A stretch of 32,000 nt of DNA from Cylindrospermopsis raciborskii Cr2010 (GCF_003367075.2 NZ_CP065936.1:1860001-1892000), one strand, 5' to 3'; positions 1 through 32,000 are shown, counted from the stretch's first letter. Notes: generated by a model not told the origin, from the sequence alone. Translations and numbers: made by a program.

Positions 1-233
1 TTTTTCAATTCTTCCCAAAACTTTTCCAACCCCTTTACCTGTGCTTTTGGGTTGCCAGGATCTTTAATCTCGACAAACACGATGCGCGTTTCAAACTCAA
101 CCACGAAATCAACACGGTACATTTCGGCTACACCATGATAGTCTGGGAGTGTTTTATCCTTCATTTGATCAAAAATTAGTGCCTCTATTGCATCAGTAAA
201 GTCAATTTCCAAATCTCCCTCTCTCACTTTCAT
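1..233 (-). CDS. 5' part (77 codons, open at the window edge) of a small protein with a PD-(D/E)xK-like motif; putative nuclease partner of the adjacent ATPase
   Basis: Absent from the ORF track because it runs off the window. The ATG at 233-231 overlaps the ATPase stop TGA (232-230) as ATGA. My translation: MKVREGDLEIDFTDAIEALIFDQMKDKTLPDYHGVAEMYRVDFVVEFETRIVFVEIKDPGNPKAQVKGLEKFWEELK. The pattern VDFVV, then 12 residues, then VFVEIK fits the D...ExK restriction-endonuclease-fold signature. The fold call rests on this motif only. Confidence 0.55.
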   Translation of the reverse strand, partial: MKVREGDLEIDFTDAIEALIFDQMKDKTLPDYHGVAEMYRVDFVVEFETRIVFVEIKDPGNPKAQVKGLEKFWEELK

Positions 234-1312
234 TTGCCTAAATCCCCCATTTTTAGGTTTGCCTGTTGTTTGATAAGGTCGCTAAAGGTGTCGGCAATGG
301 CATTTGGTGACATGCCTATGTAGTTATCTACACTATCTAGTTTGATGGTTCCAGATTCATCGTCACGGTAAAGAGTATGAAACAGAATATGATCCCCTTT
401 ACTCTTGTCCATAAGTAAGTCAAACCACTTAAGTAGGACGTAATCATGGGTTGCCAGAATAATTTGCTGTCCATTGCGTGATAGCTCTAGCAAAATGGTA
501 ACGAGACTTTTCATTAGTTTAGGATTCATGTTTGATTCGGGCTCATCCCACAACAGCAAACCACTAACACCGGGTTGAAGCGCTCCCGTTTCTAACAGAC
601 GGTAAAGCATTCCAACTTTGCAAATACCCTCAGCTATAGAGTTAGCGGAGTATTCAGAATCCTCGGTTCTGAAGGTGACTTTGCCTCCTCCATAAAAAAT
701 GAATCGACCACCGCAGATGGCTTTCAGCTCTTCCATGGCCCATTTGGATTTTTCGTGCAGGTTTTCTGGACGAATTTGGGGAAGGTCTAACAACAGGCAA
801 ATATCTTGATAGGTCTGGTCAAAGGAGACTTGGTACATCTGGTACAAACTGTTAAATCCTTCCATAAAGGAGAGGACTTCTTTGGTGGGAAAGAAAACTG
901 GTTTGGATTGGTATTGTTCCCAGCTATTTCTATCCTTGATCTTGATTTCCAAGGATTTAGATCTGGTGCTAAAGCTAACAGCTATCTGTTGATCATGGGC
1001 AAAGTGGGCTTCTAATGTGGCTTTTGCACCTCCACCGTGGTGACGCATTTTGTTTAACTTAGCATCTAAAGGCAAAAATAGGCGTAAAAGCTCAGGGGTA
1101 AGGGCGGAAGCAAGTTCCTTAACAAGTTCTTTGTCACTAATATGGGAATTGTTTTTGAATAGGGGAGCCACACCACTGAGGAAATAAGCAGCTTTGAGCA
1201 GATGGGTTTTTCCTGTGCCATTTTTCCCGATGATCACGTTGATCTTAGGAGAAAAATCAATTTTCACTTCGGTGAAGGCCATGAAGTTTTTCAGTTCTAA
1301 ATGTGTTATCAT
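230..1312 (-). CDS. ABC/SMC-like (AAA_21/AAA_15-type) ATPase, 360 aa
   Basis: ATG start at 1312. Walker A GKNGTGKT is encoded at 1205-1228. A signature-like SIAEGICKVGMLYRLL, Walker B plus D-loop LLLWDEPESNMNP and an H-loop ATHD are present. The stop overlaps the start of the downstream ORF. Confidence 0.88.
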   Translation of the reverse strand: MITHLELKNFMAFTEVKIDFSPKINVIIGKNGTGKTHLLKAAYFLSGVAPLFKNNSHISDKELVKELASALTPELLRLFLPLDAKLNKMRHHGGGAKATLEAHFAHDQQIAVSFSTRSKSLEIKIKDRNSWEQYQSKPVFFPTKEVLSFMEGFNSLYQMYQVSFDQTYQDICLLLDLPQIRPENLHEKSKWAMEELKAICGGRFIFYGGGKVTFRTEDSEYSANSIAEGICKVGMLYRLLETGALQPGVSGLLLWDEPESNMNPKLMKSLVTILLELSRNGQQIILATHDYVLLKWFDLLMDKSKGDHILFHTLYRDDESGTIKLDSVDNYIGMSPNAIADTFSDLIKQQANLKMGDLGK

Positions 1313-1697: not shown

Positions 1698-1746
1698 TTG
1701 TGCTTGTCTTATAGCGTTATAATGGATCGCTCTAGCATTCGGCGCA

Positions 1747-2142: not shown

Positions 2143-2513
2143 ACTCGTGATGCAAACTTGGCTTTTTCTGCTTGGAGTTTTGCCCGAATGGCTTCTGTAC
2201 CTGGTTTTGGGGGCTTAGCCGCAATACGGGCAACTCGCTCACGATTTTGTTCTTCGTAATACTGTCTCAGTTCTTCGCCTTCCTTCAGGACAAGCTGATA
2301 CTCTGCATCAACTTCTTCACGGTATGTTTCAATATAAGATAGTGCAGCATTTACCTGTCCATGGGTAAGATCGAGCATAGCACGGATAAACTTTGGTGGA
2401 TAGTTTTCCGTTACGTAATCCATCACATCGTACAGGGTAATGCGAGTACCTGCGATCGTTAATCCTCGCTCTGTACGAATGATATCAGTTTTTCTATTAG
2501 ATGCTGGGGTCAT
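2139..2513 (-). CDS. DUF433-domain protein (antitoxin-like, HTH) with a C-terminal charged helical extension
   Basis: The ORF track starts at TTG 2519; the first ATG is at 2513 (MTPASNRK...). The core GLTIAGTRITLYDVMDYV...LTHGQVNAALSYI matches the DUF433 pattern (G.R. ... aal.y). It begins about 43 nt downstream of the brxC stop. Confidence 0.78.
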   Translation of the reverse strand: MTPASNRKTDIIRTERGLTIAGTRITLYDVMDYVTENYPPKFIRAMLDLTHGQVNAALSYIETYREEVDAEYQLVLKEGEELRQYYEEQNRERVARIAAKPPKPGTEAIRAKLQAEKAKFASRV

Positions 2514-2556
2514 GGTCAAAGCCTCTTAATATGTGTGTTTACTAACTTGTATTTTA

Positions 2557-5500
2557 TCATAGTTGTACTCTTCTCCCACTGCGAACTTCTGCCAATAATG
2601 CCTCCCGCATAACAGCTACATACTGCTCTACATCCGTTTCATCTGCCAGCCACTCTTTGTCGAAACTAAACTGGATGGAACGATGACTTACATACAGACT
2701 TTGTGTCTCTTGCCAATTCCCCACTAATCTTTTTTCTTGATTAGTATGGTATTGATTTGCCTTCTCTGCTACCACACCAGGCTGGGTACAAAAAACTATT
2801 TGCCGTAGCCTTTCGTATTCCTCTTGCTCAAAGTAGCTCTTTCTGTCACGGATTACAGCGATGAGCTTCTGGTTCTTGATAACCTTTATATATTCATCAA
2901 ATGAGCTAGCAATCTCAGTTTGCTGACCAGAGCTAAGGACATGAAACTCAGCCGTAGCAACTAGTTTGCTTCGTAGTGATTCTATTATAGCTACAGCATC
3001 CTCAATTTCTCTATTTAACCGAGTAGTAATCTCTTCCCTCAGTTTAGTCACCAATTCCTTTAACTGCTGCATGCGATCGCCTCGGAAACAGTGAGGGTCA
3101 GCGAGTATTTCCCGCACCTTTTTCTCTTGAAGAGCATTCACTATCAAAAAGTTCGCTTCCTGCTCTTCAATAAACGCCTGGGCACAATCGAATATGTTTC
3201 GCTGTAAACCATTCAGAAATGTGCGAATCGGTTCAATAGTTTGTTCTTTCAGGTCAAGCAGCTCATCTTTTTGTTTGAGAAGGTCTGTAACATACCAGGC
3301 ATAAGGTTTGCCCTTGATGTTTCTTAGTCTGGCGATCGCACTACTAAGTTTTTCTTTAAAGGGATAGTGTGAAGTAGAAAGGGCTTCAAGCCTATCAATT
3401 AAGTCGGAAATGGCGGTTGCGGTTTTTTGTCCCAGTAGTTTGGCATCTCCGCTGGGAGCTGGTTCGTTAAAAAAGTCAGTATATAGTTTCTTTAATGCCC
3501 GTACCTGGGAAGCAGTGAAATCTATTTGCGGTTCAAGAATGATGTTCATGTGGTCACGGGTGTTGGTTAGTGCTTTGAGTAGCTCATTACCATCCAATAG
3601 ATTGCTGTCCCAGCGTACTTCCAGCTTACCTCGGGCACAAAGACTCGCTACATTGTGCAATAGGGCTGCATGATGCCAGCCATAAGGTTTACGTTCAAAT
3701 TTGTCTATTAGCGTTTTTAGGGTTGTCCTTACTCCAAGATCTTTATTGCGCTGAATGGAAGCAAGCACCTCCTGCTCTGGTTCGGTGTCTTCACGAAGCT
3801 GTTCAGGTTTGTTTAGTGCCTCGGACAGATCTTTTTCCGTATAAACCATACCGCGCAGCATTTGTAAATTGGGATAGGTTTTGAGGATCAGATCCTCAAA
3901 TCCCTTGAGGATGCGATTCTGGGGGTCATCTCCCCCTACTTCAATATAGCTGCCATTAAGGATGAGTTTTGATTTACTCAATAATGTGTGTACCCGTTGC
4001 TGGAGATCTGTGTAGCGTTGCCTATTCTGGGAATTCTTATCGGTGAGTATGCTTTTAACTGAATCCTTTTGGGTAATGGACACATTCTGGCTAATATATT
4101 TATCTGTCTGTTTGTACATGATAAGGTCGCGCATGAGTCTTTCCTCTGGTGGTATAATCACTACCAGTTCATCACGTCCCATGGACTGGGCGCGCAGGTT
4201 ATCTTCATTCTCAGCATTTTCATTGAACGGGGAGATGATGTGTATTGTCAATTCACATTCCCGACTATAGAGACGATCATCTATCTTTTTACAAAAGGGA
4301 TAATCCTGTGAGTTGGAGCGAATCTTTTTCAGCTTGAGGGTGTGATCGAAGACTAGCTTTTCTAACTCTTCAGCAACAGCTCTTTTGTCTACCTCCGTAT
4401 TCTTAATCTCCTGTTCCACGTCTTTTTCTTCATCCGTTAGATACTCGTAGAGTTCCCCGTGGCGCTGGATGTAGGTTTCTTGCTCTAATAGGTTTAGTCC
4501 TTCCTCTACTCTCTTACGCAAGTCCGTGATATGGCAATTGAACCGATCAAACATCAACACACAGAGGTTGCGCTGTGTTGCCTTAAATTCTCTTACATAT
4601 TTGACCAGGAACAGGGCTTTTAACAGCTGGATAGCAAAAGTGTTACGCAGGTGTCGCTCCGCCTGTAAAATGGCTTGCTGGATGCTGGATTTTAGTGCTG
4701 AACGGATACCTTCAAACATGAGGTCGAAGGTGGCAAGTTGACCTTCCTCATATTCACTAATCTGTATAGCAACTTGCTGAAAAACACCTAACATGGAACG
4801 CTCTCCAACAGAGCTGTGCTTGCCTTCAAACGCATTGTGAGCTGATAGATTTTGAATGGCAGCTTGGAAAAGGGGAAACTGGTAAGGTATAAAAGGATAG
4901 CTCTGGATAAAGTGATCCCGATCCTGAAAATTACGGTAGGTCTGGGATCCATCAACGAAATCAAAAAGGGTCTTAAAGTTATTCGCTTGGTCATCATATA
5001 ATTTTGAGAGCACATTCTTGCCAATTTCATTTTTCATGAGCAGTCGCTTTTGAATGACTTCAGCAACATCTTGGCTGGTAAGTTTCATCCGGTTGGCAAA
5101 CCGAGCTTGAATCTTGGAAAAATCGTTGGTTTGTTGGCGACTATCTTCTCCTAGTACTGAGTCCATATCTTCTTGGGCGGTAACCATAATCCAAGCGCGT
5201 CCCCTACACTTGGTAGCCAGGCTTTCTGCAACGGTTTGCAGGTTGGTCATTAATTTTACATTGTCGGCGATGTATTGCCCTACCTCATCTACGAAGAAGT
5301 TTAAGCGGAAGTTTTTCCCTTGTTGCTCCACATAGTCAAAAACCGCTTTAGCAAAGTCCTCAATAGAAACCTTGTATTGACTGCGATACTTGTCGAGAAT
5401 TCCTTGACCTGCGATCGCATCGCCACCTACGGTTTGGCCATAGGCGATGGCAATGTTTTTGGACTCTAACAGGGCCTGCTCCCGACCTTCTTCCCAGGGT

Positions 5501-6057
5501 CGATGGGCCACTTCTTTGTATGCTGATTTAAAGCTTTCATATTGACCACGGCTATCTAAGTCCCGCTCAAATTGGGCAATGTAGCCATGTTTACCATAAT
5601 AGCCGCACATCTCGTCAAATACTTTGACAAAGACAGCTAGGAGGGCATCTATTTCAGTCTTGCTAATTACATCAGCCTTTTGGTCAATGTTAAAGAGAAT
5701 ACTTTTTGATGGGATGGAGACAGCCTTTTTGAGGTCACCCCGGAGCATTTCATTTTCACCGCACTTGGGTAGGAAGGAATGTAGTACCGGTATCCCATCC
5801 ACAGATCTATTTTCCAGTAGCAGTGCTAACATCTTGAGCAGGTGAGATTTACCAGAACCAAAGAAACCTGACACCCACACCCCATTGGCACCCTGGTAAT
5901 TGTTGTAAGCATGAAGAAATTCCTCCAGTCGCTTCTCTATCTCGTTAGTGAGTACATATTCTTCAATTTCAATCCGTAGGCTTGCTTCGTCATCTGCTTT
6001 GATGACTCCTTCAATGGGGCGGTCAATTGGCTTCTGAAAAATAGTCTTTAAGGTCAT
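2557..6057 (-). CDS. brxC: BREX system P-loop ATPase BrxC/PglY, 1166 aa
   Basis: The N-terminus IFQKPIDRPIEGVIKADD, then NGVWVSGFFGSGKSHLLKMLALLLEN (Walker A), a Walker B-like FFVDEVGQY, the ~1200 aa size and the position directly after brxB are all typical of BrxC. Confidence 0.9.
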   Translation of the reverse strand: MTLKTIFQKPIDRPIEGVIKADDEASLRIEIEEYVLTNEIEKRLEEFLHAYNNYQGANGVWVSGFFGSGKSHLLKMLALLLENRSVDGIPVLHSFLPKCGENEMLRGDLKKAVSIPSKSILFNIDQKADVISKTEIDALLAVFVKVFDEMCGYYGKHGYIAQFERDLDSRGQYESFKSAYKEVAHRPWEEGREQALLESKNIAIAYGQTVGGDAIAGQGILDKYRSQYKVSIEDFAKAVFDYVEQQGKNFRLNFFVDEVGQYIADNVKLMTNLQTVAESLATKCRGRAWIMVTAQEDMDSVLGEDSRQQTNDFSKIQARFANRMKLTSQDVAEVIQKRLLMKNEIGKNVLSKLYDDQANNFKTLFDFVDGSQTYRNFQDRDHFIQSYPFIPYQFPLFQAAIQNLSAHNAFEGKHSSVGERSMLGVFQQVAIQISEYEEGQLATFDLMFEGIRSALKSSIQQAILQAERHLRNTFAIQLLKALFLVKYVREFKATQRNLCVLMFDRFNCHITDLRKRVEEGLNLLEQETYIQRHGELYEYLTDEEKDVEQEIKNTEVDKRAVAEELEKLVFDHTLKLKKIRSNSQDYPFCKKIDDRLYSRECELTIHIISPFNENAENEDNLRAQSMGRDELVVIIPPEERLMRDLIMYKQTDKYISQNVSITQKDSVKSILTDKNSQNRQRYTDLQQRVHTLLSKSKLILNGSYIEVGGDDPQNRILKGFEDLILKTYPNLQMLRGMVYTEKDLSEALNKPEQLREDTEPEQEVLASIQRNKDLGVRTTLKTLIDKFERKPYGWHHAALLHNVASLCARGKLEVRWDSNLLDGNELLKALTNTRDHMNIILEPQIDFTASQVRALKKLYTDFFNEPAPSGDAKLLGQKTATAISDLIDRLEALSTSHYPFKEKLSSAIARLRNIKGKPYAWYVTDLLKQKDELLDLKEQTIEPIRTFLNGLQRNIFDCAQAFIEEQEANFLIVNALQEKKVREILADPHCFRGDRMQQLKELVTKLREEITTRLNREIEDAVAIIESLRSKLVATAEFHVLSSGQQTEIASSFDEYIKVIKNQKLIAVIRDRKSYFEQEEYERLRQIVFCTQPGVVAEKANQYHTNQEKRLVGNWQETQSLYVSHRSIQFSFDKEWLADETDVEQYVAVMREALLAEVRSGRRVQL

Positions 6058-6066
6058 GGTGTGGTC

Positions 6067-6678
6067 CTATGGTTCGTAATGGAAGATATTAAATGCTCGG
6101 TAGTATTTGTCATCCCGCAATCGCCCAAAGAGATCCAGGGATGCACCGGTTTCGAGGGAATGGGTGTAGGCCCCTGGGAAGAACATTACCGTGGGGCGGT
6201 CCTTGGCAGTGCTTTGGAGGTTGTTGAGAACGTTATGGGAGCGAATGTAAGGAAATACCTCACCCACCCCGGAAATAAACATAACGGCGAATTCCCTCTG
6301 GTCCATTTTTTCCGCAATAGCTGGTACAAGATGCTTTTCGGGATCAAGAACCCCTTGCAGTAGCTCCTTGAGTTGCTCTTTGGAAACTGAAGGCTCAATA
6401 TCCAGAATTTGCTCCCACACTCCTCGCTTTTGTAAAAGCTCAATGGAAAGATTATACAAGTTAATTTCCAGCACGCCAAGCCCAGCTTGATTGAGGCTCT
6501 TGGTAAGTTGTTGCTGAATGTATTCCATTTCTACTGACTCTTCTGGTCTATAGGGACAGATAAAAAATGGCACTTCGTTTCCTAAACCCTGCTTTTTCAG
6601 AAAGCGATCGCCAGAAATAACTTTTAGCAGGTGCTGAAATCTCTCTTGTATTGGTTGTGTTTCTATATCTAGTGCCAT
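6067..6678 (-). CDS. brxB: BREX protein BrxB (DUF1788), 203 aa
   Basis: Motifs match the DUF1788/BrxB pattern as I recall it: FLKKQGLGNEVPFFICPYRPEESVEMEYI, ISGVGEVFPYIRSHNVLNNLQ and RPTVMFFPGAY. The gene ends 9 nt before the brxC start. Confidence 0.85.
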   Translation of the reverse strand: MALDIETQPIQERFQHLLKVISGDRFLKKQGLGNEVPFFICPYRPEESVEMEYIQQQLTKSLNQAGLGVLEINLYNLSIELLQKRGVWEQILDIEPSVSKEQLKELLQGVLDPEKHLVPAIAEKMDQREFAVMFISGVGEVFPYIRSHNVLNNLQSTAKDRPTVMFFPGAYTHSLETGASLDLFGRLRDDKYYRAFNIFHYEP

Positions 6679-20716: not shown

Positions 20717-20850
20717 AACCGGAACCCTCTCAACATTTGTCTTTTCATGGCAAAGGTTACTTCTAGAGGTGTTTGCTACCGTGGGGAGGTGCAATAAAAC
20801 TGACATTTTTTTTGAGTCAATTAACCCAATCTAATAAGGGCGTAAATTTA

Positions 20851-21528
20851 ATGATTTCTATCGCAGACGACATGGATAACAACCGAGGTCTAACAATGAT
20901 GTTGAATAATTTAGAAAATGACTCGATTTTTACGCCAGAACAGGTTTTGGAAAATCGGGGTCGAGTGGCAATATTTATTGATGGCTCAAATTTATTTTAT
21001 GCAGCTTTGCAATTAGGTATCGAAATTGATTACACTAAACTATTATGTCGGTTGACTGGTGGATCAAGGCTATTACGGGCTTTTTTCTATACTGGTGTAG
21101 ACCGGACTAATGAGAAGCAACAGGGATTTTTGTTGTGGATGCGTCGCAATGGTTATCGAGTCATAGCTAAGGATTTGGTACAATTGCCAGACGGTTCCAA
21201 AAAAGCTAACCTAGATGTGGAAATAGCTGTGGATATGATGGCTTTAGTGGACTCCTATGACACCGCAGTTTTGGTCAGCGGTGATGGCGACTTGGCCTAT
21301 GCTGTTAACTCGGTCAGTTATCGTGGCGTTAGGGTGGAAGTTGTTAGTCTACGCTCCATGACCAGTGACAGCTTAATTAATGTGAGCGATCGCTATATTG
21401 ATTTGGAAGCGATTAGGGAGGATATCCAAAAGACACCTCGTCAGGGTTATCCCTACAGGCCATTATCCAGTATGGGATTCTTGGACGACCATCAAGATAG
21501 TGAAGGACATTTACAGATTCCAGAATAA
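20851..21528 (+). CDS. NYN-domain (LabA/DUF88-like) protein
   Basis: RVAIFIDGSNLFYAA...NLDVEIAVDMM...AVLVSGDGDLAYAV is the NYN/LabA pattern. The start is uncertain: ATG at 20851, or ATGATG at 20896 which has a better GAGG Shine-Dalgarno. The ORF-track TTG at 20773 is unlikely. Confidence 0.8.
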   Translation: MISIADDMDNNRGLTMMLNNLENDSIFTPEQVLENRGRVAIFIDGSNLFYAALQLGIEIDYTKLLCRLTGGSRLLRAFFYTGVDRTNEKQQGFLLWMRRNGYRVIAKDLVQLPDGSKKANLDVEIAVDMMALVDSYDTAVLVSGDGDLAYAVNSVSYRGVRVEVVSLRSMTSDSLINVSDRYIDLEAIREDIQKTPRQGYPYRPLSSMGFLDDHQDSEGHLQIPE

Positions 21529-23493: not shown

Positions 23494-23784
23494 TTAGGAA
23501 GCGCGATCGTCTTCATTCTCAGGTAGTAAAAGACGAATAGCCAAAACAGCAAAACCAATAGCTGCAATTGTCTTTAAAATTCTGGTGGGCAATAATTGTG
23601 CCACCGCTCCCCCAGCTAACACACCCAGCAAACTAGTGAACACCAGCGCAGCTGCGGTGCCAAAAAATATAGCCTTTCTAGATTTTCCTTGACCAGACAA
23701 TGCGATCGCAGCTAGTTGACTCTTATCACCCAGTTCGGAAAGAAACACGGTAATAAAGCTAATTCCCAGAAGATTCCAATCCAT
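23494..23784 (-). CDS. UPF0016 (GDT1/TMEM165/Mnx) half-size membrane protein
   Basis: 96 aa carrying one copy of the family signature E-x-G-D-K-[ST] (ELGDKSQL). Confidence 0.85.
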   Translation of the reverse strand: MDWNLLGISFITVFLSELGDKSQLAAIALSGQGKSRKAIFFGTAAALVFTSLLGVLAGGAVAQLLPTRILKTIAAIGFAVLAIRLLLPENEDDRAS

Positions 23785-23804
23785 ATCTATATCTATTTAA
23801 TAAC

Positions 23805-24179
23805 TTAACCGTGAATCACATCCCAAAATAACATCGAAGAAACTAACAATAATACCAGTCCTGCTGATTTTTCTACCGTTTTAGGACTAAGTCTACTAGC
23901 AATAAAACCACCAAGCAGTACACCCAGTAAACTAGTGGTGACCAAAGCAGCTCCTGCTCCCAGGAATACCAACCAAGGCGCATGGGACTGGGCACTCATT
24001 AATAATGTTGATAATTGAGTCTTATCACCAATTTCCGCCAAAAAAATGGTAATAAAGGTTGTCCCAAATACTACCCAAACCGAGTCAGACTTTTTTGTCT
24101 TGGGTGGTGATTGGTCAGCAGGTGCAGTAATGGTTAAATCCAAAGTATCAAGTTTCACGGTGCTAACGGAGTTTTTCAT
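23805..24179 (-). CDS. UPF0016 (GDT1/TMEM165/Mnx) half-size membrane protein with an N-terminal extension
   Basis: 124 aa carrying one copy of the signature (EIGDKTQL). It lies 20 nt upstream of the other half-gene on the same strand. Confidence 0.85.
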   Translation of the reverse strand: MKNSVSTVKLDTLDLTITAPADQSPPKTKKSDSVWVVFGTTFITIFLAEIGDKTQLSTLLMSAQSHAPWLVFLGAGAALVTTSLLGVLLGGFIASRLSPKTVEKSAGLVLLLVSSMLFWDVIHG

Positions 24180-24248
24180 ATTTTTATCATTATCTCATAA
24201 TGTAATGACCAATGACAAGTTTTTAAAAAAAGATCCTTTGTCCCTACT

Positions 24249-24605
24249 TCACAACTCAAAACCCAGGGTCTGATTAAATCGAATCATTTCTAAACTGCGA
24301 TCGCCATATACAGAATCTATCTGTTGATGACAACAGTCAATAGCGAAGTCATTTAACTCCTCTGGTTTGATACCATACATCTTTTCAAAGGTTTTAGACT
24401 CTACCCGACAAAATGAAGGACGATCCCTATAAATAGTACATTCTCGTGTTTGATGATCAAAATTAACACACCAACCGTCCTCACCTACCAAACGGAGATA
24501 GAGTGAGAGTTCTGTAGGTGAGAGATAATCGGATAAATAGGGGCGATCGCTAGGATCCAGATGACAGCAAGCACCACACTGCTTAACACATTGCCAAGTA
24601 GCCAT
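24249..24605 (-). CDS. YkgJ-family (UPF0153) cysteine-cluster protein
   Basis: 118 aa with the N-terminal CxxCxxCC motif (CVKQCGACCH) and downstream Cys residues. Confidence 0.8.
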   Translation of the reverse strand: MATWQCVKQCGACCHLDPSDRPYLSDYLSPTELSLYLRLVGEDGWCVNFDHQTRECTIYRDRPSFCRVESKTFEKMYGIKPEELNDFAIDCCHQQIDSVYGDRSLEMIRFNQTLGFEL

Positions 24606-24737
24606 AAATTACCTCCATAATAGATGAAACAAAAAGAGACATGAACTGATCCTGTTTTTTGGTATATTGATATAGTAGGAAAAATTGCCATTTAGCAATT
24701 TGAATTATTTAATTTTTTAAAACCCTTGGGAGGAAAA

Positions 24738-24857
24738 ATGGAAGCTCTAGCTAATATCAACTGGGAAGTCGCGTTTCAATTGACCTGTGTAGCATTAATT
24801 GTCCTTGCTGGACCCGCTGTAATTTTTGTACTCGCTTTTCGTAACGGGGATCTTTAA
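24738..24857 (+). CDS. psb30: Photosystem II reaction-centre protein Psb30 (Ycf12), 39 aa
   Basis: Not in the ORF track because it is too short. A GGAGG-like Shine-Dalgarno (gggaggaaaaATG) precedes the start. Translation: [39 protein letters not shown], which matches the Psb30 pattern (...QL..VALI..AGP.VIF.LA.R.G.L). Confidence 0.85.
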
Positions 24858-24933
24858 TTGGTGAAATGGGAAGTGGGTGTGAGCAAGCCATACTTTGCCA
24901 AAATACTACAAAATTAAGCCCAAACTGAGTCAA

Positions 24934-26757
24934 CTAGTTTCCGTCAAAGCTGTAATTGCAGCTTTGATGATACTGTTGAGGTAACCTAACACCGACTAAC
25001 TCCAACTCAATATCATTCGCACCATTAAAGTTATTTTCCCGTAACTTGTAAGCAATATCAATAGTGAAGGGTAAAGGGAAATAATCACCCCATCGCCAAG
25101 CCAAAGCTTTAATTTCATATCTTGTATTATCTATGATTTGAGCCAAAGTTAACTTAATACTACCCTTACCAATCATTTGCTGTTCTACCACTCGTACTTG
25201 GGGAGTCCAAAAGATAGGGTCAGGGTTTTCAATTCCACAGGGATGAAGAATATTCAACTGTTGGAATAAATCCCGATTGATCTGACAAAAGTTGATTTGA
25301 CCATCTATTCTTAATAGTGGTTTGAGATGTTGAACTTCCAGACATTGATTAGCAAACTCTGATAAACGCAATCGAAAATTTTCTAGATTAGCTGCGGGTA
25401 AAGAAAATCCAGCAGCAGCTTTATGTCCACCATATTTATATAGTAAATCGCTGCTAAACTCCAAAGCATCAAACACATTAAATTCAGGTATTCCCCTTGC
25501 GGAACCACGAACCAGGTGATTATTTTCGTAAGTACCGATAAAGACAGGAACTCCATAACGTTCTACCAGACGAGAAGCGACAATGCCAATTACACCATGA
25601 TGCCAATTATCTTTGACTACGACCAGAACTCGGTCTTGATGCAAATTTTGTGCATATAAATCTTCAACCAACAATATTGCCTCTCCTTGGATTTCCTCAC
25701 AGATTTTTTGACGTTCAGCATTTATTTGCTCACATTGCATTGCTCGTTCTAAAGCAATTCCCATATCATCAGTAGTTAGTAATTCGATCACAATTTGAGG
25801 ATTGCCAATTCTACCCACAGCATTGATTCTTGGTCCTAGACGAAATCCAATATCTTCTGGTTTTAAAGACTTAGAATTTTGTGCCTTAGATACTTGCTGA
25901 TTTTCTCCCATACTTGGTTGTACACCAGAGACTTGAATTAAAGCCTGAACACCCGGTAAATTGGACTTATATAATGATTTTAAGCCCCGTTTTATCCAAC
26001 GACGATTAACACCGGTTAAAGGAGCTAGGTCAGCAATAGTTCCCAAGGTAAATAAATCCAACATAGGTTGAACCAGACCTGTGATTTTTTGCAAATGTTG
26101 AGCTAAACATACAGCTAAAACATAGGCTACACCCACACCAGCAAGACCTCTATAAGGGGAAGATAGAGATATTAATTTGGGGTTAAGAATTGCATCAGCA
26201 ACTGGTAATTGGGGAGGTAAATCATGGTGATCCGTAATAATCACTTTCAAACCCAACTCTTTTGCTCTTGCAATAGGTTCAAGAGCAGCAATACCATTAT
26301 CTACGGTTAGAATTAAACTGACCCCTTCACTGTGAAATTCTTCCACAATTCGTTTATTAATTCCATACCCCTCGTGCATTCTACTGGGAATAGCATAGTC
26401 AATGTTTGCACCTAAAGATCCAAGACTACGTAACAGCAAGGCTGTACTAGTCATGCCATCAGCATCATAATCGCCGCAGATAGCAATTTTCTCATGGTTC
26501 CTAATAGCACTTGCCAATAATTCCACACTGGGAACTAAATCGGGGAACTCGTCCAAGGGAGAGGGTAAATTTATACATTCAGGATTGATAAATCTAGTAG
26601 CTATTTCTGGTGTTTCCATACCTCTATTAATTAACAACTGACCTATAATAGGAGAAACATTATTGACACTTGCTAACTTTTCAGCTAATTCTTCATTTTG
26701 CTTTGCTATGTGCCAGCGTTGATATGGTAATTTTATATTATTTTTCTGTGGAGTCAT
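24934..26757 (-). CDS. recJ: Single-stranded-DNA-specific exonuclease RecJ
   Basis: 607 aa with DHH-family motifs (ICGDYDADGMTS, TVDNG, IITDHHDLP) and a DHHA1 region (GGHKAAAGFS). Confidence 0.93.
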   Translation of the reverse strand: MTPQKNNIKLPYQRWHIAKQNEELAEKLASVNNVSPIIGQLLINRGMETPEIATRFINPECINLPSPLDEFPDLVPSVELLASAIRNHEKIAICGDYDADGMTSTALLLRSLGSLGANIDYAIPSRMHEGYGINKRIVEEFHSEGVSLILTVDNGIAALEPIARAKELGLKVIITDHHDLPPQLPVADAILNPKLISLSSPYRGLAGVGVAYVLAVCLAQHLQKITGLVQPMLDLFTLGTIADLAPLTGVNRRWIKRGLKSLYKSNLPGVQALIQVSGVQPSMGENQQVSKAQNSKSLKPEDIGFRLGPRINAVGRIGNPQIVIELLTTDDMGIALERAMQCEQINAERQKICEEIQGEAILLVEDLYAQNLHQDRVLVVVKDNWHHGVIGIVASRLVERYGVPVFIGTYENNHLVRGSARGIPEFNVFDALEFSSDLLYKYGGHKAAAGFSLPAANLENFRLRLSEFANQCLEVQHLKPLLRIDGQINFCQINRDLFQQLNILHPCGIENPDPIFWTPQVRVVEQQMIGKGSIKLTLAQIIDNTRYEIKALAWRWGDYFPLPFTIDIAYKLRENNFNGANDIELELVGVRLPQQYHQSCNYSFDGN

Positions 26758-27079
26758 GGTTGGTTATAATCAGCAAAAATATGAAATTTCAAATCCAGTA
26801 GATGTATAAATAATAATCTATAATGTTAGCAGCAAACACAATTTTTTGATAAAATCTCAAGTAAGTGCCAACTTGGCAACCAGAGACTCTAGAAGGGAGT
26901 TACATTGAACTAGACAAACAAGAGTTAGTCTCTTACAGTTTGTTAAACGAGTGAACAAAATGACCATTTGCTGCAATAGGAATGATCAATGAATACAAAC
27001 CTAATCGATTACAAATTACCCCCCTAATTAACGATTAGGTTTGTCAGTGATATTCCCTAAACGCTTCAGCAGCAAATAA

Positions 27080-27130
27080 GAGAGTGGGAGTGAATGGCGC
27101 TTGGTAATGCCTCCTCCCACTCTCTTTTTT
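27080..27130. terminator. Bidirectional rho-independent terminator-like hairpin just downstream of sbcD
   Basis: An 11-bp perfect stem, GAGAGTGGGAG (27080-27090) with CTCCCACTCTC (27114-27124). On the + strand it is followed by TTTTTT (27125-27130). On the - strand it is followed by TTATTTG. It lies 29 nt past the sbcD stop. Confidence 0.65.
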
Positions 27131-27158
27131 ATGGGTACTACCAAAAAACAATATGTCA

Positions 27159-28403
27159 CTATCTGTCTACCAAAATCATAGTCTCATCATCTCCTAATAA
27201 CTCTTGTGCTGCTTCTAACATATATGTGGCAATATCTTTTAAATCTTCACGATTGTTTAAGTAGGTTCTTAATGCCTCTATGGGATCAATACTACTACTA
27301 GCATTTAATTCGGGAATTCGCGGTCTGGCTAATTGACTCACTAGTTCTGGGTGAATCGTATAATGATGTGCATCCCCCAGCGCCTTATGAATAACAGCGT
27401 TTTCTATTACATCTAATTGTTCCGAACGCAGTTTATAAACTAGTCTGACTACATTCCCTGTTAGGTCATGTTTGGCGATCGCCTGCAATAATGTTTGTTG
27501 AGGATTGTCTCTGGGGGATAAATCCACCTCGATGGTGCGGAAAATGCGAGCAGGTAGTGGGCAAAACTGCCAATTGGCCTTACCTTTTTCCAACTCTACC
27601 ATGACATAACCCTTTTGTTCTTTTTCTTCACTAAAATCCACTCGCTCAATACTACCAGGATAAACCACAGGTGGGTCGTTGGATTTATTCAGATTTTGAT
27701 GGCAGTGGACATGACCTAATGCCACATAATCAAAACATGGTCTAATAAGTAAAGAAGCTGGCAGAGTAAAACCCTTACCTACAGCTAATAAACGTTCCGC
27801 ACCCAACATAGCATTATCAGCCATCAAATGGGCTAAAAGTATGGTGGGCAGATTTGGGTCTAAATTTCTCACCTCTCCTTCTAAAACCACTTGTAATTTT
27901 TCAATCAAAAGTTGATTAACCTCAGCCATAGACATTCCCGTAGTTTCCTTGCGGGTCATTAACATAGACCTAGTCAACCAAGGTAGAGTAATTACTTGTA
28001 CCTTACCATTGGGGGTTTGAATATGATGGGTAGTCAAACTATCACCCACCACAAAACCGGGTACTCCCAAAGTTCGGTAAATATTAAGACTTGCTCCTCC
28101 TATACCCTGGGAATGTAAATCATGATTGCCAACTAATAAAACCGTTGGAATATGGGCATCAACCAACCTACGAAACTGACTGGCAAATGCTTCTTGTACG
28201 TAAGGTGGAGGGGTAGCATCCGGAAAGGCATCACCACCAAATATAACCATATCTACTGGTTCAGACAGGGCCCGATCAATACATAAAGATAGGGTATTAA
28301 CAAAATCCTCCAAGCGGGAGTTTAATCCAGTGTTGGGGTTAATACGTCCGTGGGAAAAACCGCTTCCTATATGAATATCTGAAAGGTGTAGAACTTTGAT
28401 CAT
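27159..28403 (-). CDS. sbcD: SbcD/Mre11-family DNA repair exonuclease (metallophosphoesterase)
   Basis: 414 aa with calcineurin-like motifs LHLSDIHIG, GGDAF, GNHD and GHVH. Confidence 0.88.
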   Translation of the reverse strand: MIKVLHLSDIHIGSGFSHGRINPNTGLNSRLEDFVNTLSLCIDRALSEPVDMVIFGGDAFPDATPPPYVQEAFASQFRRLVDAHIPTVLLVGNHDLHSQGIGGASLNIYRTLGVPGFVVGDSLTTHHIQTPNGKVQVITLPWLTRSMLMTRKETTGMSMAEVNQLLIEKLQVVLEGEVRNLDPNLPTILLAHLMADNAMLGAERLLAVGKGFTLPASLLIRPCFDYVALGHVHCHQNLNKSNDPPVVYPGSIERVDFSEEKEQKGYVMVELEKGKANWQFCPLPARIFRTIEVDLSPRDNPQQTLLQAIAKHDLTGNVVRLVYKLRSEQLDVIENAVIHKALGDAHHYTIHPELVSQLARPRIPELNASSSIDPIEALRTYLNNREDLKDIATYMLEAAQELLGDDETMILVDR

Positions 28404-28476
28404 GGATTTACGGCAATCTTTTTTTCATGATACGCTCCCACACTCACAGTGTGGGATTTATATCTAGATTTAAATC

Positions 28477-29181
28477 TTAAATGTGAATACCACACTCAGT
28501 CTTCCCAGTACCGCGCCAACGTCCAGCTCTTTCATCTTCTCCATCACCTACCCTGGTAGTAATGGGTTCATCACCAATACTTGGGTATCCTTGATCATGT
28601 AGGGGATTATAAATTACCTTGTATTCAGCTACATACTCCCAGCTTTCTTTTCTTGTCCAGGTAGCCAAGGGATTAATTTTTAAGCGCCCTTGATTATCCA
28701 ACTCAAACACGGGCATATTCGCACGGGTAACCGCCTGATCCCGACGACGACCAGTAATCCAAGCTACTGTATTTAATTCATCCAATCCACGCTGCAAAGG
28801 TTCAATTTTAGTAATTTGATGAAATTTACTAATATCAGTATCCCACAACGCCTCTCCATACTTAGCGGCAAATTCCTCACGACTATAGACATTGGGTACT
28901 TTATAGGTCTTTAAGTCTAAGCCATAAACTGTTTTAGCTTTAGCAACCAAGTCTAAAGTTTGTTCAAAGTGATGAAGGGTATCAAGGAAAATCACTGGTG
29001 TTGGGTGATCCAGTACTTCATAAAGAATATGGGTAATAATCAAGTCATCAACATTGAAAGCACTGGTTTGGACTAAACCCGTAGGTACGTTTTCCACCGA
29101 CCATGCCAAGATTTCCGTGGGAGTGGCGGTTTCAAATTGTTCATTTAAACTTTCTAAGTCAAAAGCTGTTGCAACTGTCAT
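28477..29181 (-). CDS. cysH: Phosphoadenosine phosphosulfate (PAPS) reductase family protein
   Basis: C-terminal ECGIH motif. I saw no CC...CxxC iron-sulfur cysteines. The likely start is ATG 29181 (MTVATAFDLESL...). The ORF-track TTG start at 29214 adds 11 codons. Confidence 0.88.
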   Translation of the reverse strand: MTVATAFDLESLNEQFETATPTEILAWSVENVPTGLVQTSAFNVDDLIITHILYEVLDHPTPVIFLDTLHHFEQTLDLVAKAKTVYGLDLKTYKVPNVYSREEFAAKYGEALWDTDISKFHQITKIEPLQRGLDELNTVAWITGRRRDQAVTRANMPVFELDNQGRLKINPLATWTRKESWEYVAEYKVIYNPLHDQGYPSIGDEPITTRVGDGEDERAGRWRGTGKTECGIHI

Positions 29182-29280
29182 GGTAGTTCTCTTGTCAACG
29201 TTTAAATATCTCAAAGTATTTTACCGGAAAATTGACCCACCTGACTTAAAAGTTGCTGGAAAACTCTTTCCATCCATTTA

Positions 29281-29544
29281 TCAAGCGCGATTAATTCCAC
29301 TGCCAACTACGTAGTCCGCGCGTCTGCACTCCCCTTTGGTCCCATTAAAGATATCCTCGGGAGACCGAAACTGATCCACTTTTATCACCAGAGCATCCAA
29401 AGGTAAGTCACGTATCTTTACCATGGAATCCGGGGATTGAGGTTCATCGAGTATAGCATATAACTTCCCGTTCTCCTCTTTAAGCTCAACCTGTGCGGTT
29501 TTCTTAATTAGTTCGGCAAGAATTTCCATGTCCCTACTCATCAT
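29281..29544 (-). CDS. Small partner ORF of the second ATPase; possibly a truncated or decayed homolog of the 1-233 PD-(D/E)xK-like gene
   Basis: ATG candidates lie at 29544, 29541 (both overlapping the ATPase stop at 29534-29536) and 29529. A gap-free 24-residue match to the 1-233 product, DQFRSPEDIFNGTKGECRRADYVV versus DQMKDKTLPDYHGVAEMYRVDFVV, gives 7 identities with identical spacing. The ORF stops 8 codons after the D, so no ExK is present. Confidence 0.5.
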   Translation of the reverse strand: MMSRDMEILAELIKKTAQVELKEENGKLYAILDEPQSPDSMVKIRDLPLDALVIKVDQFRSPEDIFNGTKGECRRADYVVGSGINRA

Positions 29545-30922
29545 CCCCCCAAACAATTTCTTCCTGAATGCGATTCATCTCTTCAATTGTTTTATCGAAG
29601 CTAGAAGCTTCAATTCCCATTTTGGCATCTATGGGAGCAGGAACTAGTGTTTGGCAATAAGTCTTTTTCTTTAAGCTGTCTAGCTTAATCAATTCCTCTT
29701 TTGCAATAAAAACGCTAACCTTATCAGCTTTGAGCAACTCTTCTTTGCGGTATCCTTCACGCTCTGCTATTTCACTTAGCCTTTTTCCTCCCTGATTTAA
29801 CATAATGAGAGTGTTAAGCTCTTTAATAATATAATCACTGTGAGTAGTTATAAATACTTTTACTCCAACATTTACCAACCTCGAAAACAAACGAGCTACG
29901 CGTCTCTGGTTCTCCGGGTGCAAATTAAGCTCAGGTTCATCAACCATGAGTAAGTCGCCAGGAGCAGCAACATGTCGCAGATAAAATCCTATATCCAGTA
30001 GTGAACGAACAGCGCTTGAACTTTCATCCATGGTCAATTTTACGCGTTTTCCTTTAGGGCTATAGTATAATTCATCATTCTTCGTGACAAGATACTCACC
30101 ACCAATAATGTCTGAGAAGTCATTTGTAATCTCTGGATGATTCTTTGCTATGAAGCTATCTTTTTTTGAAAGCTCTTCTAACTGTCTTGTGAAATCAACG
30201 TTTGACTTAATGGGTAGGGCATAATCCGCATATACTTTGGAAAGTAATTCAAGTGGATTTATTTCCTTTTCCATTGAGCTCATTTCCTCCAGGAGACGGT
30301 TTCGGGCAAAATTAAGCTCTCTTCTGAATATTGCCACACCAGTTCGTTCGGCGCTGGCAATAAAAAGACGGGGGAAAAGGTCCCCAAAAATAATGTCTTT
30401 TAGAGCATCTCCGATAATTCGACTAATTATTTCTTGAGGTATCCTTACCTGCTCTTTCTCAACGAGCAAAGAAATTGAAACTAGGGAAGAGTCGGCTTTT
30501 TTCGATATGAAGAATAGCTGGGTTTTAGCTGCACCCATAGTCCGTTCGAAGGTTGAAAGAGGGTGTATATCACTAGAATCCAGGTTTACCAAAAACTGAC
30601 TCCCGGCAAAATGTTTTTCGGAGGAAGCGAAGAAGTGAGGTAATTGTTGTGTAAATGCCTTACAACCTTTCTCAAGGATATTTGGTGCATTGCGGATGTA
30701 TTCTTCAATATTTAACTCAATTAAACCTTCATTTAACAATTGCCACACATCTCCGTCGGAAATATCTATGGAGAAAGCATCACGCCAAAATGAGATAAAG
30801 CCAAACAATGCATAGGTGGCATAGGTTTTACCGGTATTGTTCCCACCACATATAATAGTTAGTTCGTTAAGTGTAAACTCTGCCTGCTTGATAGGTCCGA
30901 GATTCTTTATGGAAATTTTCAT
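29534..30922 (-). CDS. ABC/SMC-like (AAA_15/AAA_21-type) ATPase, 462 aa
   Basis: ATG at 30922. Walker A GGNNTGKT, a signature-like SSSAVRSLLDIGFYL, Walker B plus D-loop LLMVDEPELNLHP and an H-loop TTHS are present. The motif order matches the 230-1312 ATPase, with a longer insert between Walker A and the signature. Confidence 0.88.
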   Translation of the reverse strand: MKISIKNLGPIKQAEFTLNELTIICGGNNTGKTYATYALFGFISFWRDAFSIDISDGDVWQLLNEGLIELNIEEYIRNAPNILEKGCKAFTQQLPHFFASSEKHFAGSQFLVNLDSSDIHPLSTFERTMGAAKTQLFFISKKADSSLVSISLLVEKEQVRIPQEIISRIIGDALKDIIFGDLFPRLFIASAERTGVAIFRRELNFARNRLLEEMSSMEKEINPLELLSKVYADYALPIKSNVDFTRQLEELSKKDSFIAKNHPEITNDFSDIIGGEYLVTKNDELYYSPKGKRVKLTMDESSSAVRSLLDIGFYLRHVAAPGDLLMVDEPELNLHPENQRRVARLFSRLVNVGVKVFITTHSDYIIKELNTLIMLNQGGKRLSEIAEREGYRKEELLKADKVSVFIAKEELIKLDSLKKKTYCQTLVPAPIDAKMGIEASSFDKTIEEMNRIQEEIVWGDDE

Positions 30923-31368
30923 TCGCTTTTACATTTAGCTGATTTAAATATATAGCCTTGGCCAGAACCACCTTGCAAATAGGTACGAGTAGTTGATTTT
31001 TTAAGAGAGATAACATACACCTATCTTAATGTAACAGATATCAAGTTATATGTCAACTCCGTCAACTCATCTTGTCTTGGGAGGATATGTTTAGGTAGAG
31101 CTTAGTTATAGGATGAGATTAAACAAATATACACTTTGAAATAGCCCTAAAAATTATGACTTGAGTTATAAAAATATAGATAGGAATGAGTAGCAACAGT
31201 TTGTGTTAGCTAGTATTTAATCTTAGTATAATAAATACTAATACTTTACCTATATTTTGAATCCCAAAATTTTCTACCCCAGCCTATTGACTTTTATTCT
31301 CAAAAGTTCTACATTAACTTTTGGGATTAGTTGAAACTAATTCGCAAAAATACTGAGAATTATTACTA

Positions 31369-32000
31369 ATGAACCTTAACCAATTCCTGAAAAGAAAGTT
31401 CTTGATTGCCGGTACATTGGCAACACTGACAAGTTTATTTGTCAGCAATGTAGTCAAAACCCAACCCACGGTGGCTAACTCCAATCCTCCCCCAGTAGCA
31501 CCACTGTTACTTACAAAAAATCTCAAAAATTTGACCATAGTCTTTCCTAGTCGAAAGGATGCTCCTAACCTGCAAGAACAAGTGGGGAAAGTAGCTAACT
31601 TCTTGTCCCGGGAGTTAGGAATACCCGTAAAGGCACAAATTAGCGATGATACTGCTGCTGTAGAAGCCCTAAGAGCTAATAGAGCCGATGTGGCTTTTTT
31701 AAGCAGTCGTCCAGCCTTAAAAGCGGAGGGACTAGCAAATTCTCGTTTATATCTAGCAGAGGTGAGATCTAACTACTCCGGTAGATACACTTATAATTCC
31801 ATATTTGTAGTTGCCAAAAACAGTCCTCTAACTCCTAAAGCTTCTACTAAAGCGACGCTGGAACAGCTCAGAGGCAAAAAAATTGCCTTTACCTCCCCCA
31901 CCTCTGGATCAGGGTTTATTTTCCCAGTTAGTGAGTTGGTGAAGAACGGATTTGTCCCCGACAAAGATCGGATGGAAGGTTTCTTCGGTCAAATTACTTA
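31369..32000 (+). CDS. PhnD-like phosphate/phosphonate ABC transporter substrate-binding protein (5' part, runs off the window)
   Basis: Not in the ORF track because it is open at the window end. ATG at 31369. Translation: MNLNQFLKRKFLIAGTLATLTSLF (signal)...LTIVFPSRKDAP...AAVEALRANRADVAFLSS...LRGKKIAFTSPTSGSGFIFP, which is the PhnD family pattern. Confidence 0.8.
   Translation, partial: MNLNQFLKRKFLIAGTLATLTSLFVSNVVKTQPTVANSNPPPVAPLLLTKNLKNLTIVFPSRKDAPNLQEQVGKVANFLSRELGIPVKAQISDDTAAVEALRANRADVAFLSSRPALKAEGLANSRLYLAEVRSNYSGRYTYNSIFVVAKNSPLTPKASTKATLEQLRGKKIAFTSPTSGSGFIFPVSELVKNGFVPDKDRMEGFFGQIT

What the first reader, a model, noticed from the sequence alone, without database searches (positions are those of the whole stretch)
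29215..30922. Second ATPase + small-partner cassette of the same architecture, between cysH and a phnD-like gene
A 462-aa ATPase has the same motif order as the 230-1312 protein (GGNNTGKT ... SSSAVRSLL ... LLMVDEPELNLHP ... TTHS). A small ORF follows whose possible ATG starts (29544/29541) overlap the ATPase stop. The cassette lies between two housekeeping genes, cysH and phnD-like, with 445 bp of AT-rich spacer upstream, so it looks like a small insertion. Two cassettes of one architecture within 30 kb, one of them inside a BREX island, is what a mobile and diversifying defence-gene family would look like.
Basis: partly seen in the sequence, partly recalled or inferred. Interest (0 to 1): 0.7.

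Follow-up and report, generated by a model that had tools for sequence, protein, structure and literature searches.

The report
Phage-defence cassette with truncated nuclease
Between two housekeeping genes of a Raphidiopsis-like cyanobacterium sits a horizontally acquired copy of a known two-gene candidate anti-phage system (ABC-type ATPase plus small nuclease), but its nuclease gene has lost the half that carries the catalytic residues, so it is most likely a decayed remnant and not a working system.

Summary
ORF 29534-30922 (-) is an intact 462-aa ABC-type ATPase with the stated motifs. A small ORF overlaps its stop, and 446 bp of AT-rich spacer separates it from a divergent phnD-like gene.

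The ATPase is a full-length match to PADLOC PDC-M47A (E 8.5e-236) and PD-T4-4_A (2.7e-161). The small ORF is not a complete partner. It matches only positions 2-81 of the ~180-aa PDC-M47B, a PD-(D/E)xK nuclease with invariant E..D..ExK..Q. It keeps the D but lacks ExK and everything after it. Its last codons and stop come from a 41-bp scrap of a different resident gene. No C-terminal half exists anywhere in the window.

None of 80 Nostocales cysH loci has the cassette. R. brookii D9 (cysH 97%) has a different 205-aa PD_DExK ORF in that gap. The cassette is therefore an accessory insertion of about 1.9 kb (≈29309-31199).

The closest ATPase homologues (82%) lie in proteobacterial BREX systems between brxC and pglX. 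Others are stand-alone or on a cyanobacterial plasmid. All have an intact ~180-aa B.

The 230-1312 cassette is a different system (HEC-02). It shares the architecture but only 30% identity over 91 aa.

Verdict: a degraded member of a known candidate defence family. Low interest.

The parts
29534..30922 (-). Intact ABC-type (AAA_15/AAA_21, OLD/PtuA-like) ATPase, 462 aa; PDC-M47A / PD-T4-4_A family
   Evidence: PADLOC PDC-M47A E 8.5e-236 (1-460 of 461) and PD-T4-4_A 2.7e-161. Pfam AAA_15 4.6e-27 and AAA_21 2.9e-16. 82-83% identical to thousands of homologues. All nucleotide-binding motifs present. Model pLDDT 78.7; nearest solved folds are PtuA / retron I-A / Eco8 ATPases, E ~1e-9.
29305..29544 (-). 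N-terminal 80 codons of a PDC-M47B-type PD-(D/E)xK nuclease gene (start ATG 29544 or 29541, overlapping the ATPase stop). It retains GECRRAD, the D-bearing strand, and ends before the ExK motif.
   Evidence: PADLOC PDC-M47B 2.4e-26, profile 2-81 of 186. Aligns to residues 1-80 of 177-184-aa homologues. HMM of 60 full-length B matches positions 2-80 of 181 only. Family invariants are E71, D76, E91, K93, Q105.
29281..29304 (-). Tail of the small ORF (GSGINRA + stop). It is not B-derived; it is read out of frame from the remnant of a resident gene.
   Evidence: Homology to B ends at residue 80. blastn matches window 29308-29268 to L001 7634-7674 inside the D9 205-aa ORF.
29268..29308 (-). 41-bp remnant of a D9-type 205-aa PD_DExK gene that occupies the phnD-cysH gap in R. 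brookii D9; right-hand junction of the insert at about 29305-29310
   Evidence: The D9 ORF matches PADLOC PD_DExK at 5.3e-28.
30923..31199 (-). 277-bp non-coding leader that belongs to the inserted DNA. It has no counterpart in D9 or in the proteobacterial loci and contains a promoter-like site at 31056-31028 (TTGACA-17-TACATT with TG).
   Evidence: blastn finds only the window itself and the conspecific metagenome contigs L081-L083. Promoter scan: 7 sites found against 6.4 expected, so this is a candidate only.
31200..31368 (.). Native phnD upstream region; left-hand junction of the insert at 31199/31200
   Evidence: Window 32000-31200 matches L001 6424-7211 at 89%.
28477..29181 (-). cysH (PAPS reductase), native downstream flank, same strand as the cassette
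   Evidence: Pfam PAPS_reduct 4.4e-47; 97% identical to R. brookii D9.
31369..32000 (+). phnD-like periplasmic binding protein gene (5' part), native upstream flank, divergent from the cassette
   Evidence: Translation; 92% identical to the D9 gene.
230..1312 (-). Comparison cassette: HEC-02A ABC ATPase embedded in the window's BREX island (brxC 2557-6057, brxB 6067-6678)
   Evidence: PADLOC HEC-02A 8.2e-115; BrxC E 0 and BrxB 2e-70.
3..233 (-). Comparison cassette: first 77 codons of its HEC-02B (NERD-like PD-(D/E)xK) nuclease, running off the window; has RVDFVV...VFVEIKD
   Evidence: Sequence; PADLOC HEC-02B 3.6e-26, profile 1-76 of 171.

Best explanation
This is a horizontally acquired copy of a two-gene candidate anti-phage system: PADLOC PDC-M47, whose ATPase is of the same family as E. 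coli PD-T4-4_A, in the broader class that includes V. cholerae WonAB. In intact copies a dimeric ABC-type ATPase (A) is paired with a ~180-aa PD-(D/E)xK nuclease (B) encoded by an overlapping downstream gene. By analogy with WonAB, A acts as sensor and regulator and holds or stabilises B, and B is the nucleic-acid-cutting effector that stops the infection. In this genome about 1.9 kb of foreign DNA (leader + A + the first 80 codons of B) lies in the phnD-cysH gap, where it replaces the 5' two-thirds of a resident small PD_DExK gene. The B gene is cut off between its catalytic D and its ExK motif. The ORF closes after 7 out-of-frame codons supplied by the remnant of the resident gene. The effector is therefore gone, and the cassette is most likely a non-functional remnant: an orphan, still intact ATPase gene plus a nuclease stub. 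Shown here: family assignment, the truncation, the junctions, accessory status, and the contexts of homologues. Inferred: the sensor/effector mechanism (from the literature on relatives) and the loss of defence function.
For: - Family: the PADLOC, Pfam and fold-search values are given under 'parts'.
- Truncation: profile coverage 2-81 of 186. Alignment to intact 177-184-aa B proteins stops at residue 80. A full-length B HMM searched with filters off against all six frames finds positions 2-80 only and nothing for 81-181.
- Nuclease nature of B: 60 homologues have invariant E71, D76, E91, K93 and Q105. The model has pLDDT 88.8. The top Foldseek hits are PD-(D/E)xK nucleases, though weak (best E 0.07). 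Hjc aligns with D..ExK in register (E 0.11). PMC12137116 models PD-T4-4_B and WonB as PD-(D/E)xK nucleases.
- Requirement for B: in WonAB both genes and the ExK lysine of WonB (K71A) are needed for defence. In HEC-02 both genes are needed.
- Accessory insertion: absent from 80/80 Nostocales cysH loci. Junctions were mapped against R. brookii D9.
- Intact pairs elsewhere always have a ~177-185-aa B: BREX-embedded, stand-alone, and on the Annamia dubia plasmid.
Against: - The ATPase ORF is fully intact, with every catalytic motif. The 80-codon stub has no internal stop or frameshift. The same truncated arrangement is present in at least three metagenome contigs from different samples. The truncation is therefore either recent or tolerated or kept.
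- The ATPase deviates at 8 of 199 highly conserved columns (family median 1, maximum 9). This may reflect relaxed constraint or only its phylogenetic position.
- No expression or phenotype data exist.
- PDC-M47 itself is an untested candidate. Purified PD-T4-4 showed no DNA cleavage in vitro, so the substrate and trigger of the family are unknown.
- The fold evidence for B is sub-threshold and rests mainly on conserved residues.
Confidence: 0.8

Rival explanations
1. Orphan ATPase retained for a function of its own. After loss of the nuclease, the intact ATPase (possibly with the 80-residue N-terminal stub of B as an adaptor) is kept. It might work in trans with another nuclease such as the HEC-02B of the BREX island, or act as a sensor, decoy or regulator.
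For: The ATPase ORF and motifs are intact. The stub ORF is uninterrupted and identical in protein sequence in the diverged metagenome copies. The truncated arrangement is shared by several samples. A second ABC ATPase + PD-(D/E)xK system is present in the same genome.
Against: The two ATPases share only 30% identity over 91 aa, and the partners are not significantly similar (E 0.76), so cross-talk is unlikely. Every other copy examined keeps a full-length B. Between strains the ATPase shows 2 non-synonymous and 2 synonymous changes, too few to show constraint. It has an excess of unusual substitutions at conserved columns.
Confidence: 0.12
2. One reading: a complete, working two-gene defence cassette whose partner is naturally small (~87 aa).
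For: Overlapping start and stop as in intact operons. The partner hits PDC-M47B models.
Against: The partner covers only 43% of the profile and lacks the invariant ExK and Q. Its last 7 codons derive from an unrelated gene remnant. Apart from two shorter entries on very short contigs (479 and 1002 bp), the 120 B homologues listed are 175-200 aa. In WonAB the ExK lysine is essential.
Confidence: 0.05
3. A housekeeping ABC-transporter ATPase functionally linked to the neighbouring phnD-like binding protein or to sulfate assimilation (cysH).
For: Proximity to a phnD-like gene. Weak NCBIfam hits to transporter NBDs over the Walker B region.
Against: Those hits score 15-34 bits against cut-offs of 200-480. 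The gene is absent from all 80 related loci. It matches defence-system models over its full length. No permease gene is adjacent.
Confidence: 0.01

Closest known systems
PDC-M47 (PADLOC phage-defence candidate from the 'guilt-by-embedding' screen of BREX/DISARM/type I RM systems; Payne et al., bioRxiv 10.1101/2024.01.29.577857)
   Same: The ATPase matches PDC-M47A end to end (E 8.5e-236). The partner hits only PDC-M47B models. Gene order and overlap are as in intact pairs. Close homologues (74-82% identical) are embedded between brxC and pglX.
   Different: B is truncated to profile positions 2-81 of 186. The copy here is not embedded in a defence system but sits between cysH and phnD. PDC-M47 itself is experimentally untested.
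PD-T4-4 (E. coli; Vassallo et al. 2022, PMC9519451)
   Same: ATPase of the same family (PD-T4-4_A E 2.7e-161, full length). Two-gene ABC ATPase + PD-(D/E)xK nuclease logic.
   Different: Neither the B fragment nor a full-length homologue matches any PD-T4-4_B model. [quoted passage not shown]
WonAB (V. cholerae WASA-1 prophage; PMC12137116)
   Same: OLD-type ABC ATPase dimer + small variant PD-(D/E)xK nuclease. Both genes and the nuclease lysine are required. It acts by abortive infection. This is the best experimental model for how intact relatives work.
   Different: Sequence relation was not tested here because no WonAB sequence was available to the tools. WonA differs in its inserts and C-terminal extension according to the paper. 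The window copy lacks the nuclease core.
HEC-02 (ABC ATPase + NERD nuclease), the window's own BREX-embedded cassette at 3-1312
   Same: Same architecture: an ABC ATPase followed by an overlapping PD-(D/E)xK-superfamily nuclease gene. Experimentally protective, with both genes needed.
   Different: A different family: the ATPases are 30% identical over 91 aa only, and the nuclease profiles are not significantly similar.
Septu PtuA / retron I-A and Eco8 effector ATPases; OLD, Gabija GajA, PARIS AriA
   Same: Nearest solved folds (Foldseek E ~1e-9). Same AAA_15/AAA_21 ABC ATPase clade.
   Different: Sequence similarity is low (12-16% in the structural alignments). The effectors differ (HNH or Toprim), and so do the inserts.

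Membership tests
PDC-M47 (PADLOC candidate system) | Protein A matches the PDC-M47A profile over its full length | tested here: met
   E 8.5e-236, residues 1-460 on profile positions 1-460 of 461.
PDC-M47 (PADLOC candidate system) | Protein B matches a PDC-M47B profile over its full length (~180 aa) | tested here: not met
   Only profile positions 2-81 of 186 (E 2.4e-26). The HMM of 60 homologues matches positions 2-80 of 181, and nothing in any of the six frames matches 81-181.
PDC-M47 (PADLOC candidate system) | A and B adjacent, on the same strand, B start overlapping or abutting the A stop | tested here: met
   ATG 29544/29541 against stop 29534-29536. Intact pairs have the same arrangement.
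PD-T4-4 (E. coli) | ATPase of the PD-T4-4_A family | tested here: met
   PDLC04033 E 2.7e-161 over the full length; PDLC04032 1.7e-76.
PD-T4-4 (E. coli) | Partner of the PD-T4-4_B family | tested here: not met
   No PD-T4-4_B model among the hits of the fragment (E<=0.01) or of a full-length homologue (E<=0.001).
PD-T4-4 / WonAB-type systems | Protection against phage that requires both genes | not testable with these tools
   Literature only: WonAB and HEC-02.
ABC ATPase, OLD/PtuA-like clade (AAA_15/AAA_21) | Walker A, signature-like motif, Walker B + D-loop and H-loop in order; ABC ATPase fold | tested here: met
   GGNNTGKT at 26, SSSAVRSLL at 301, LLMVDEPELNLHP at 324, TTHS at 359. These residues are invariant in 38 homologues. 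Foldseek finds PtuA and Eco8 ATPases at E ~1e-9. The motif-to-function labels are my inference from ABC ATPase knowledge.
PD-(D/E)xK nuclease superfamily (partner B) | Catalytic D ... (D/E)xK on adjacent strands, restriction-endonuclease-like fold | tested here: not met
   The full-length family has invariant D76, E91, K93, and its weak fold and profile hits are all to PD-(D/E)xK enzymes. The window product keeps D (GECRRAD) but lacks ExK and the rest of the core.
HEC-02 (for the 230-1312 cassette) | HEC-02A ATPase followed by HEC-02B NERD-like nuclease | tested here: met
   A 8.2e-115. The first 77 aa of the partner match HEC-02B at 3.6e-26, profile 1-76 of 171. The rest is off the window.
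ABC transporter nucleotide-binding subunit (housekeeping) | Score above the NCBIfam/TIGRFAM cut-off for a transporter NBD; adjacent permease | tested here: not met
   The transporter-family hits score 15-30 bits against cut-offs of 191-1959. No permease ORF is adjacent.

The most novel reading that the evidence does not exclude
The orphan ATPase and the 80-residue N-terminal stub of the nuclease are not junk but a selected 'disarmed' module. One possibility is a sensor-only or decoy complex that titrates a phage trigger or inhibitor. Another is an ATPase that has been re-wired to another effector in the genome. In either case, loss of the toxic nuclease would be an adaptive step and not simple decay.
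Probability: 0.06. Interest if true: 0.5.

Novelty: new member of a known kind. Interest (0 to 1): 0.22.

Why it matters
It matters mainly as a correction. A motif-level reading suggests a second working defence cassette, but the effector gene is half missing. Defence-system censuses that count ATPase hits would over-call this locus.

It also documents three smaller points:
- PDC-M47/PD-T4-4-like ATPases, which are BREX-embedded in Proteobacteria, also reach bloom-forming Nostocales.
- The phnD-cysH gap in the Raphidiopsis/Cylindrospermopsis lineage is a small variable spot that has held two different PD-(D/E)xK-type genes.
- Loss of the nuclease with retention of the ATPase is a decay route for this class of system.

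None of this changes current understanding of the family.

Tried and rejected
- Searched for the missing half of B elsewhere in the window (tblastn with five full-length homologues; full-length HMM against all six frames, filters off). Nothing was found.
- Looked for an intact close relative of the B fragment. The metagenome-contig scan gave only two distant loci at 46-47%. The word-based protein search returned only the fragment itself.
- A viral-contig scan with the ATPase found no relatives. The phage collection gave only a 29% Vibrio phage homologue.
- Looked for signs of a mobile element at the junctions (direct or inverted repeats, tRNA, Rfam). The repeats are at chance level, there is no tRNA, and no RNA family matched.
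- Composition: the cassette GC (0.39; GC3 0.36) is close to the host's, so composition gives no signal of recent import.
- Tried to read selection from the strain variants. There are only 4 differences in the ATPase (2 non-synonymous, 2 synonymous), which is uninformative, and the pattern is mosaic.
- Considered a functional in-frame hybrid between B and the resident PD_DExK gene. Rejected: the remnant is 41 bp, is read in another frame, and is followed by a further 226-bp deletion.
- Considered a link to the phnD-type transporter. Rejected.

Full report
**Observation.** The ORF at 29534-30922 (-) encodes a 462-aa protein. A small ORF follows on the same strand. Its ATG codons at 29544 and 29541 overlap the ATPase stop codon (29534-29536), and it ends at 29281. 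cysH (PAPS_reduct, E 4.4e-47) follows on the same strand, with its likely ATG at 29181. A phnD-like gene starts divergently at 31369. This leaves a 446-bp spacer of GC 0.26-0.32.

**What the two ORFs are.** The ATPase is a full-length match to the PADLOC models PDC-M47A (E 8.5e-236, residues 1-460 on profile 1-460 of 461) and PD-T4-4_A (2.7e-161). Its Pfam hits are AAA_15 and AAA_21. NCBIfam gives only far-sub-threshold hits to retron, Septu and transporter ATPases.

The small ORF hits only PDC-M47B models, and only over profile positions 2-81 of 186. Full-length partners taken from homologous loci are 177-184 aa. The window product aligns to their first 80 residues and then stops. An HMM built from 60 full-length B proteins was run with filters off against all six reading frames of the window. 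It matches positions 2-80 of 181 at this site and nothing for positions 81-181 anywhere. The 'small partner' is therefore a truncated gene.

**What B is.** The 60-sequence alignment has invariant E71, D76, E91, K93 and Q105. This is the E..D..ExK..Q pattern of PD-(D/E)xK nucleases.
- An AlphaFold model of the closest full-length homologue (P0182) is confident (pLDDT 88.8).
- Foldseek against PDB gives no significant match (best E 0.07). The top of the list is nevertheless made of PD-(D/E)xK enzymes: the DdmD nuclease domain, Bse634I, a hantavirus cap-snatching endonuclease, Hjc, MunI, PfoI, FAN1 and Vsr.
- A profile search of PDB sequences aligns Hjc with D and ExK in register (E 0.11).
- PMC12137116 independently models PD-T4-4_B and WonB as variant PD-(D/E)xK nucleases.

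The window fragment retains 'GECRRAD' (E and D) but ends before ExK, so the catalytic core is missing.

**Origin of the truncation and status of the locus.** A scan with the window's cysH returned 80 Nostocales loci, the best being Raphidiopsis brookii D9 at 97%. None of the 80 contains the ATPase or the B fragment.

In D9, phnD and cysH are 945 bp apart. blastn maps the following segments:
- window 32000-31200 to L001 6424-7211;
- window 29308-29268 to L001 7634-7674;
- window 29269-27143 to L001 7901-10037.

The foreign segment is therefore about 29309-31199 (~1.9 kb). It consists of a 277-bp leader with no homologue outside conspecific metagenome contigs, the ATPase gene, and 80 codons of B.

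D9 carries a 205-aa ORF in the gap (L001 7225-7842). It matches PADLOC PD_DExK at 5.3e-28 and is unique to D9 among the 80 loci. The window keeps only 41 bp of that ORF. The last seven codons and the stop of the small ORF are this remnant read in another frame.

Either a deletion removed the 3' half of B together with the 5' two-thirds of the resident gene, or a single illegitimate replacement produced the same junction. The junction has about 4 nt of microhomology at 29305-29308. A further 226 bp present in D9 is also absent from the window. No repeats, tRNA or RNA family mark the boundaries.

**Relatives.** The ATPase has thousands of homologues, and the best non-identical ones are 82-83% identical. 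Their contexts are as follows:
- In Proteobacteria they lie between brxC and pglX of type 1 BREX systems, followed by a 177-180-aa B (L084-L087; L097/L098).
- Others are stand-alone pairs among unrelated genes: L088, Phormidium sp. ETS-05 L089, and Legionella L090/91.
- One is on a cyanobacterial plasmid, Annamia dubia pANN4383.03.

Every intact example has a ~177-185-aa B that overlaps or abuts A. [quoted passage not shown] In intact pairs B diverges much faster than A (for example A 90% against B about 50%). The 62% best identity of the window's stub is therefore unremarkable.

**State of the ATPase.** All catalytic motifs are intact. The protein deviates from the family at 8 of 199 columns that are at least 97% conserved (family median 1, maximum 9). 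This could reflect relaxed constraint or only its phylogenetic position.

Three metagenome contigs (L081-L083) carry the same truncated arrangement. Compared with the window, their ATPase has four nucleotide differences, two non-synonymous (T22N, I54V) and two synonymous. All four lie in the first 380 bp. The leader differs by 4%, phnD by 6.6% and cysH by 1.5%. This is a mosaic pattern that says little about selection.

The ATPase model (pLDDT 78.7) is closest to PtuA, retron I-A and Eco8 ABC ATPases (E ~1e-9). No close relative has a solved structure.

**Mechanism.** For intact members the best experimental model is WonAB. It has an OLD-type ABC ATPase dimer and a small PD-(D/E)xK nuclease predicted to dock on the ATPase's C-terminal extensions. 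Both genes, the ATPase motifs and the nuclease ExK lysine (K71A) are required, and it acts by abortive infection. HEC-02 likewise needs both genes. PD-T4-4 forms higher-order complexes but showed no DNA cleavage in vitro, so trigger and substrate are open.

By inference, the window's cassette lacks its effector and cannot defend. An orphan role for the ATPase cannot be excluded, but nothing found here supports one.

**Comparison of the two cassettes.** The 230-1312 protein is HEC-02A (8.2e-115). Its downstream gene starts at 233 and runs off the window. It carries RVDFVV...VFVEIKD and matches HEC-02B (3.6e-26). This cassette lies in a BREX island (brxC, brxB), next to a DUF433/DUF5615 pair.

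Both cassettes share the architecture ABC ATPase followed by an overlapping PD-(D/E)xK nuclease gene. However, the ATPases align only around Walker A and Walker B (30% over 91 aa), and the partners are not significantly similar (E 0.76). About 23 kb of housekeeping genes separates the two cassettes. They are two different systems of one broad class and not one locally diversifying family.

**Verdict.** The key fact was missed: the partner is a stub that lacks the catalytic half. The locus is a decayed member of a known, experimentally untested candidate family with a PD-T4-4-like ATPase. Interest is low.

Noticed in passing
L085, L088, L094, L097, L089, L090 (A and B genes as listed): In intact PDC-M47-type pairs the ATPase is much more conserved than the nuclease. 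For example, L085 against L088 gives A 90% and B 46-52%; L085 against L094 gives A 91% and B 46-61%. This suggests rapid diversification or shuffling of the effector relative to the sensor.
   Followed up: partly
window 23534-32000 against L081, L082, L083: Divergence between the window and conspecific metagenome contigs is mosaic: phnD 6.6%, the 277-bp leader 4%, the ATPase 0.3% (all differences in its first 380 bp), cysH 1.5%, sbcD 0.16% and recJ 0. This suggests homologous recombination between strains around the cassette.
   Followed up: partly
L001 7225-7842 (R. brookii D9); L003 4796-7803: The phnD-cysH gap is variable in this lineage. D9 holds a 205-aa PD_DExK-type ORF (PADLOC 5.3e-28) found in none of the other 79 loci. 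A related MAG holds a 795-aa ORF I took by eye for a phosphoketolase (not scanned against any family library) and a DUF29 gene there.
   Followed up: partly
window 1-6678: A BREX island is cut by the window start: brxB 6067-6678, brxC 2557-6057, a DUF433 (2139-2519) / DUF5615 (1747-2142) pair, then HEC-02A (230-1312) and the start of HEC-02B (233 to off-window). Proteobacterial homologues of the cysH-side ATPase occupy exactly this brxC-pglX slot.
   Followed up: partly
window 20773-21528 (+): A 251-aa NYN-domain (predicted RNase) ORF (Pfam E 2.3e-35) lies between metG and an lptC-like gene.
   Followed up: no
window 29534-30922, residues 193-234 of the product: The ATPase model has a 42-residue low-confidence segment (pLDDT <50) in the insert region that contains invariant residues (E192, R193, T194, G195, R207-R209). 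It may be a flexible element or one that becomes ordered on dimerisation or partner binding.
   Followed up: no
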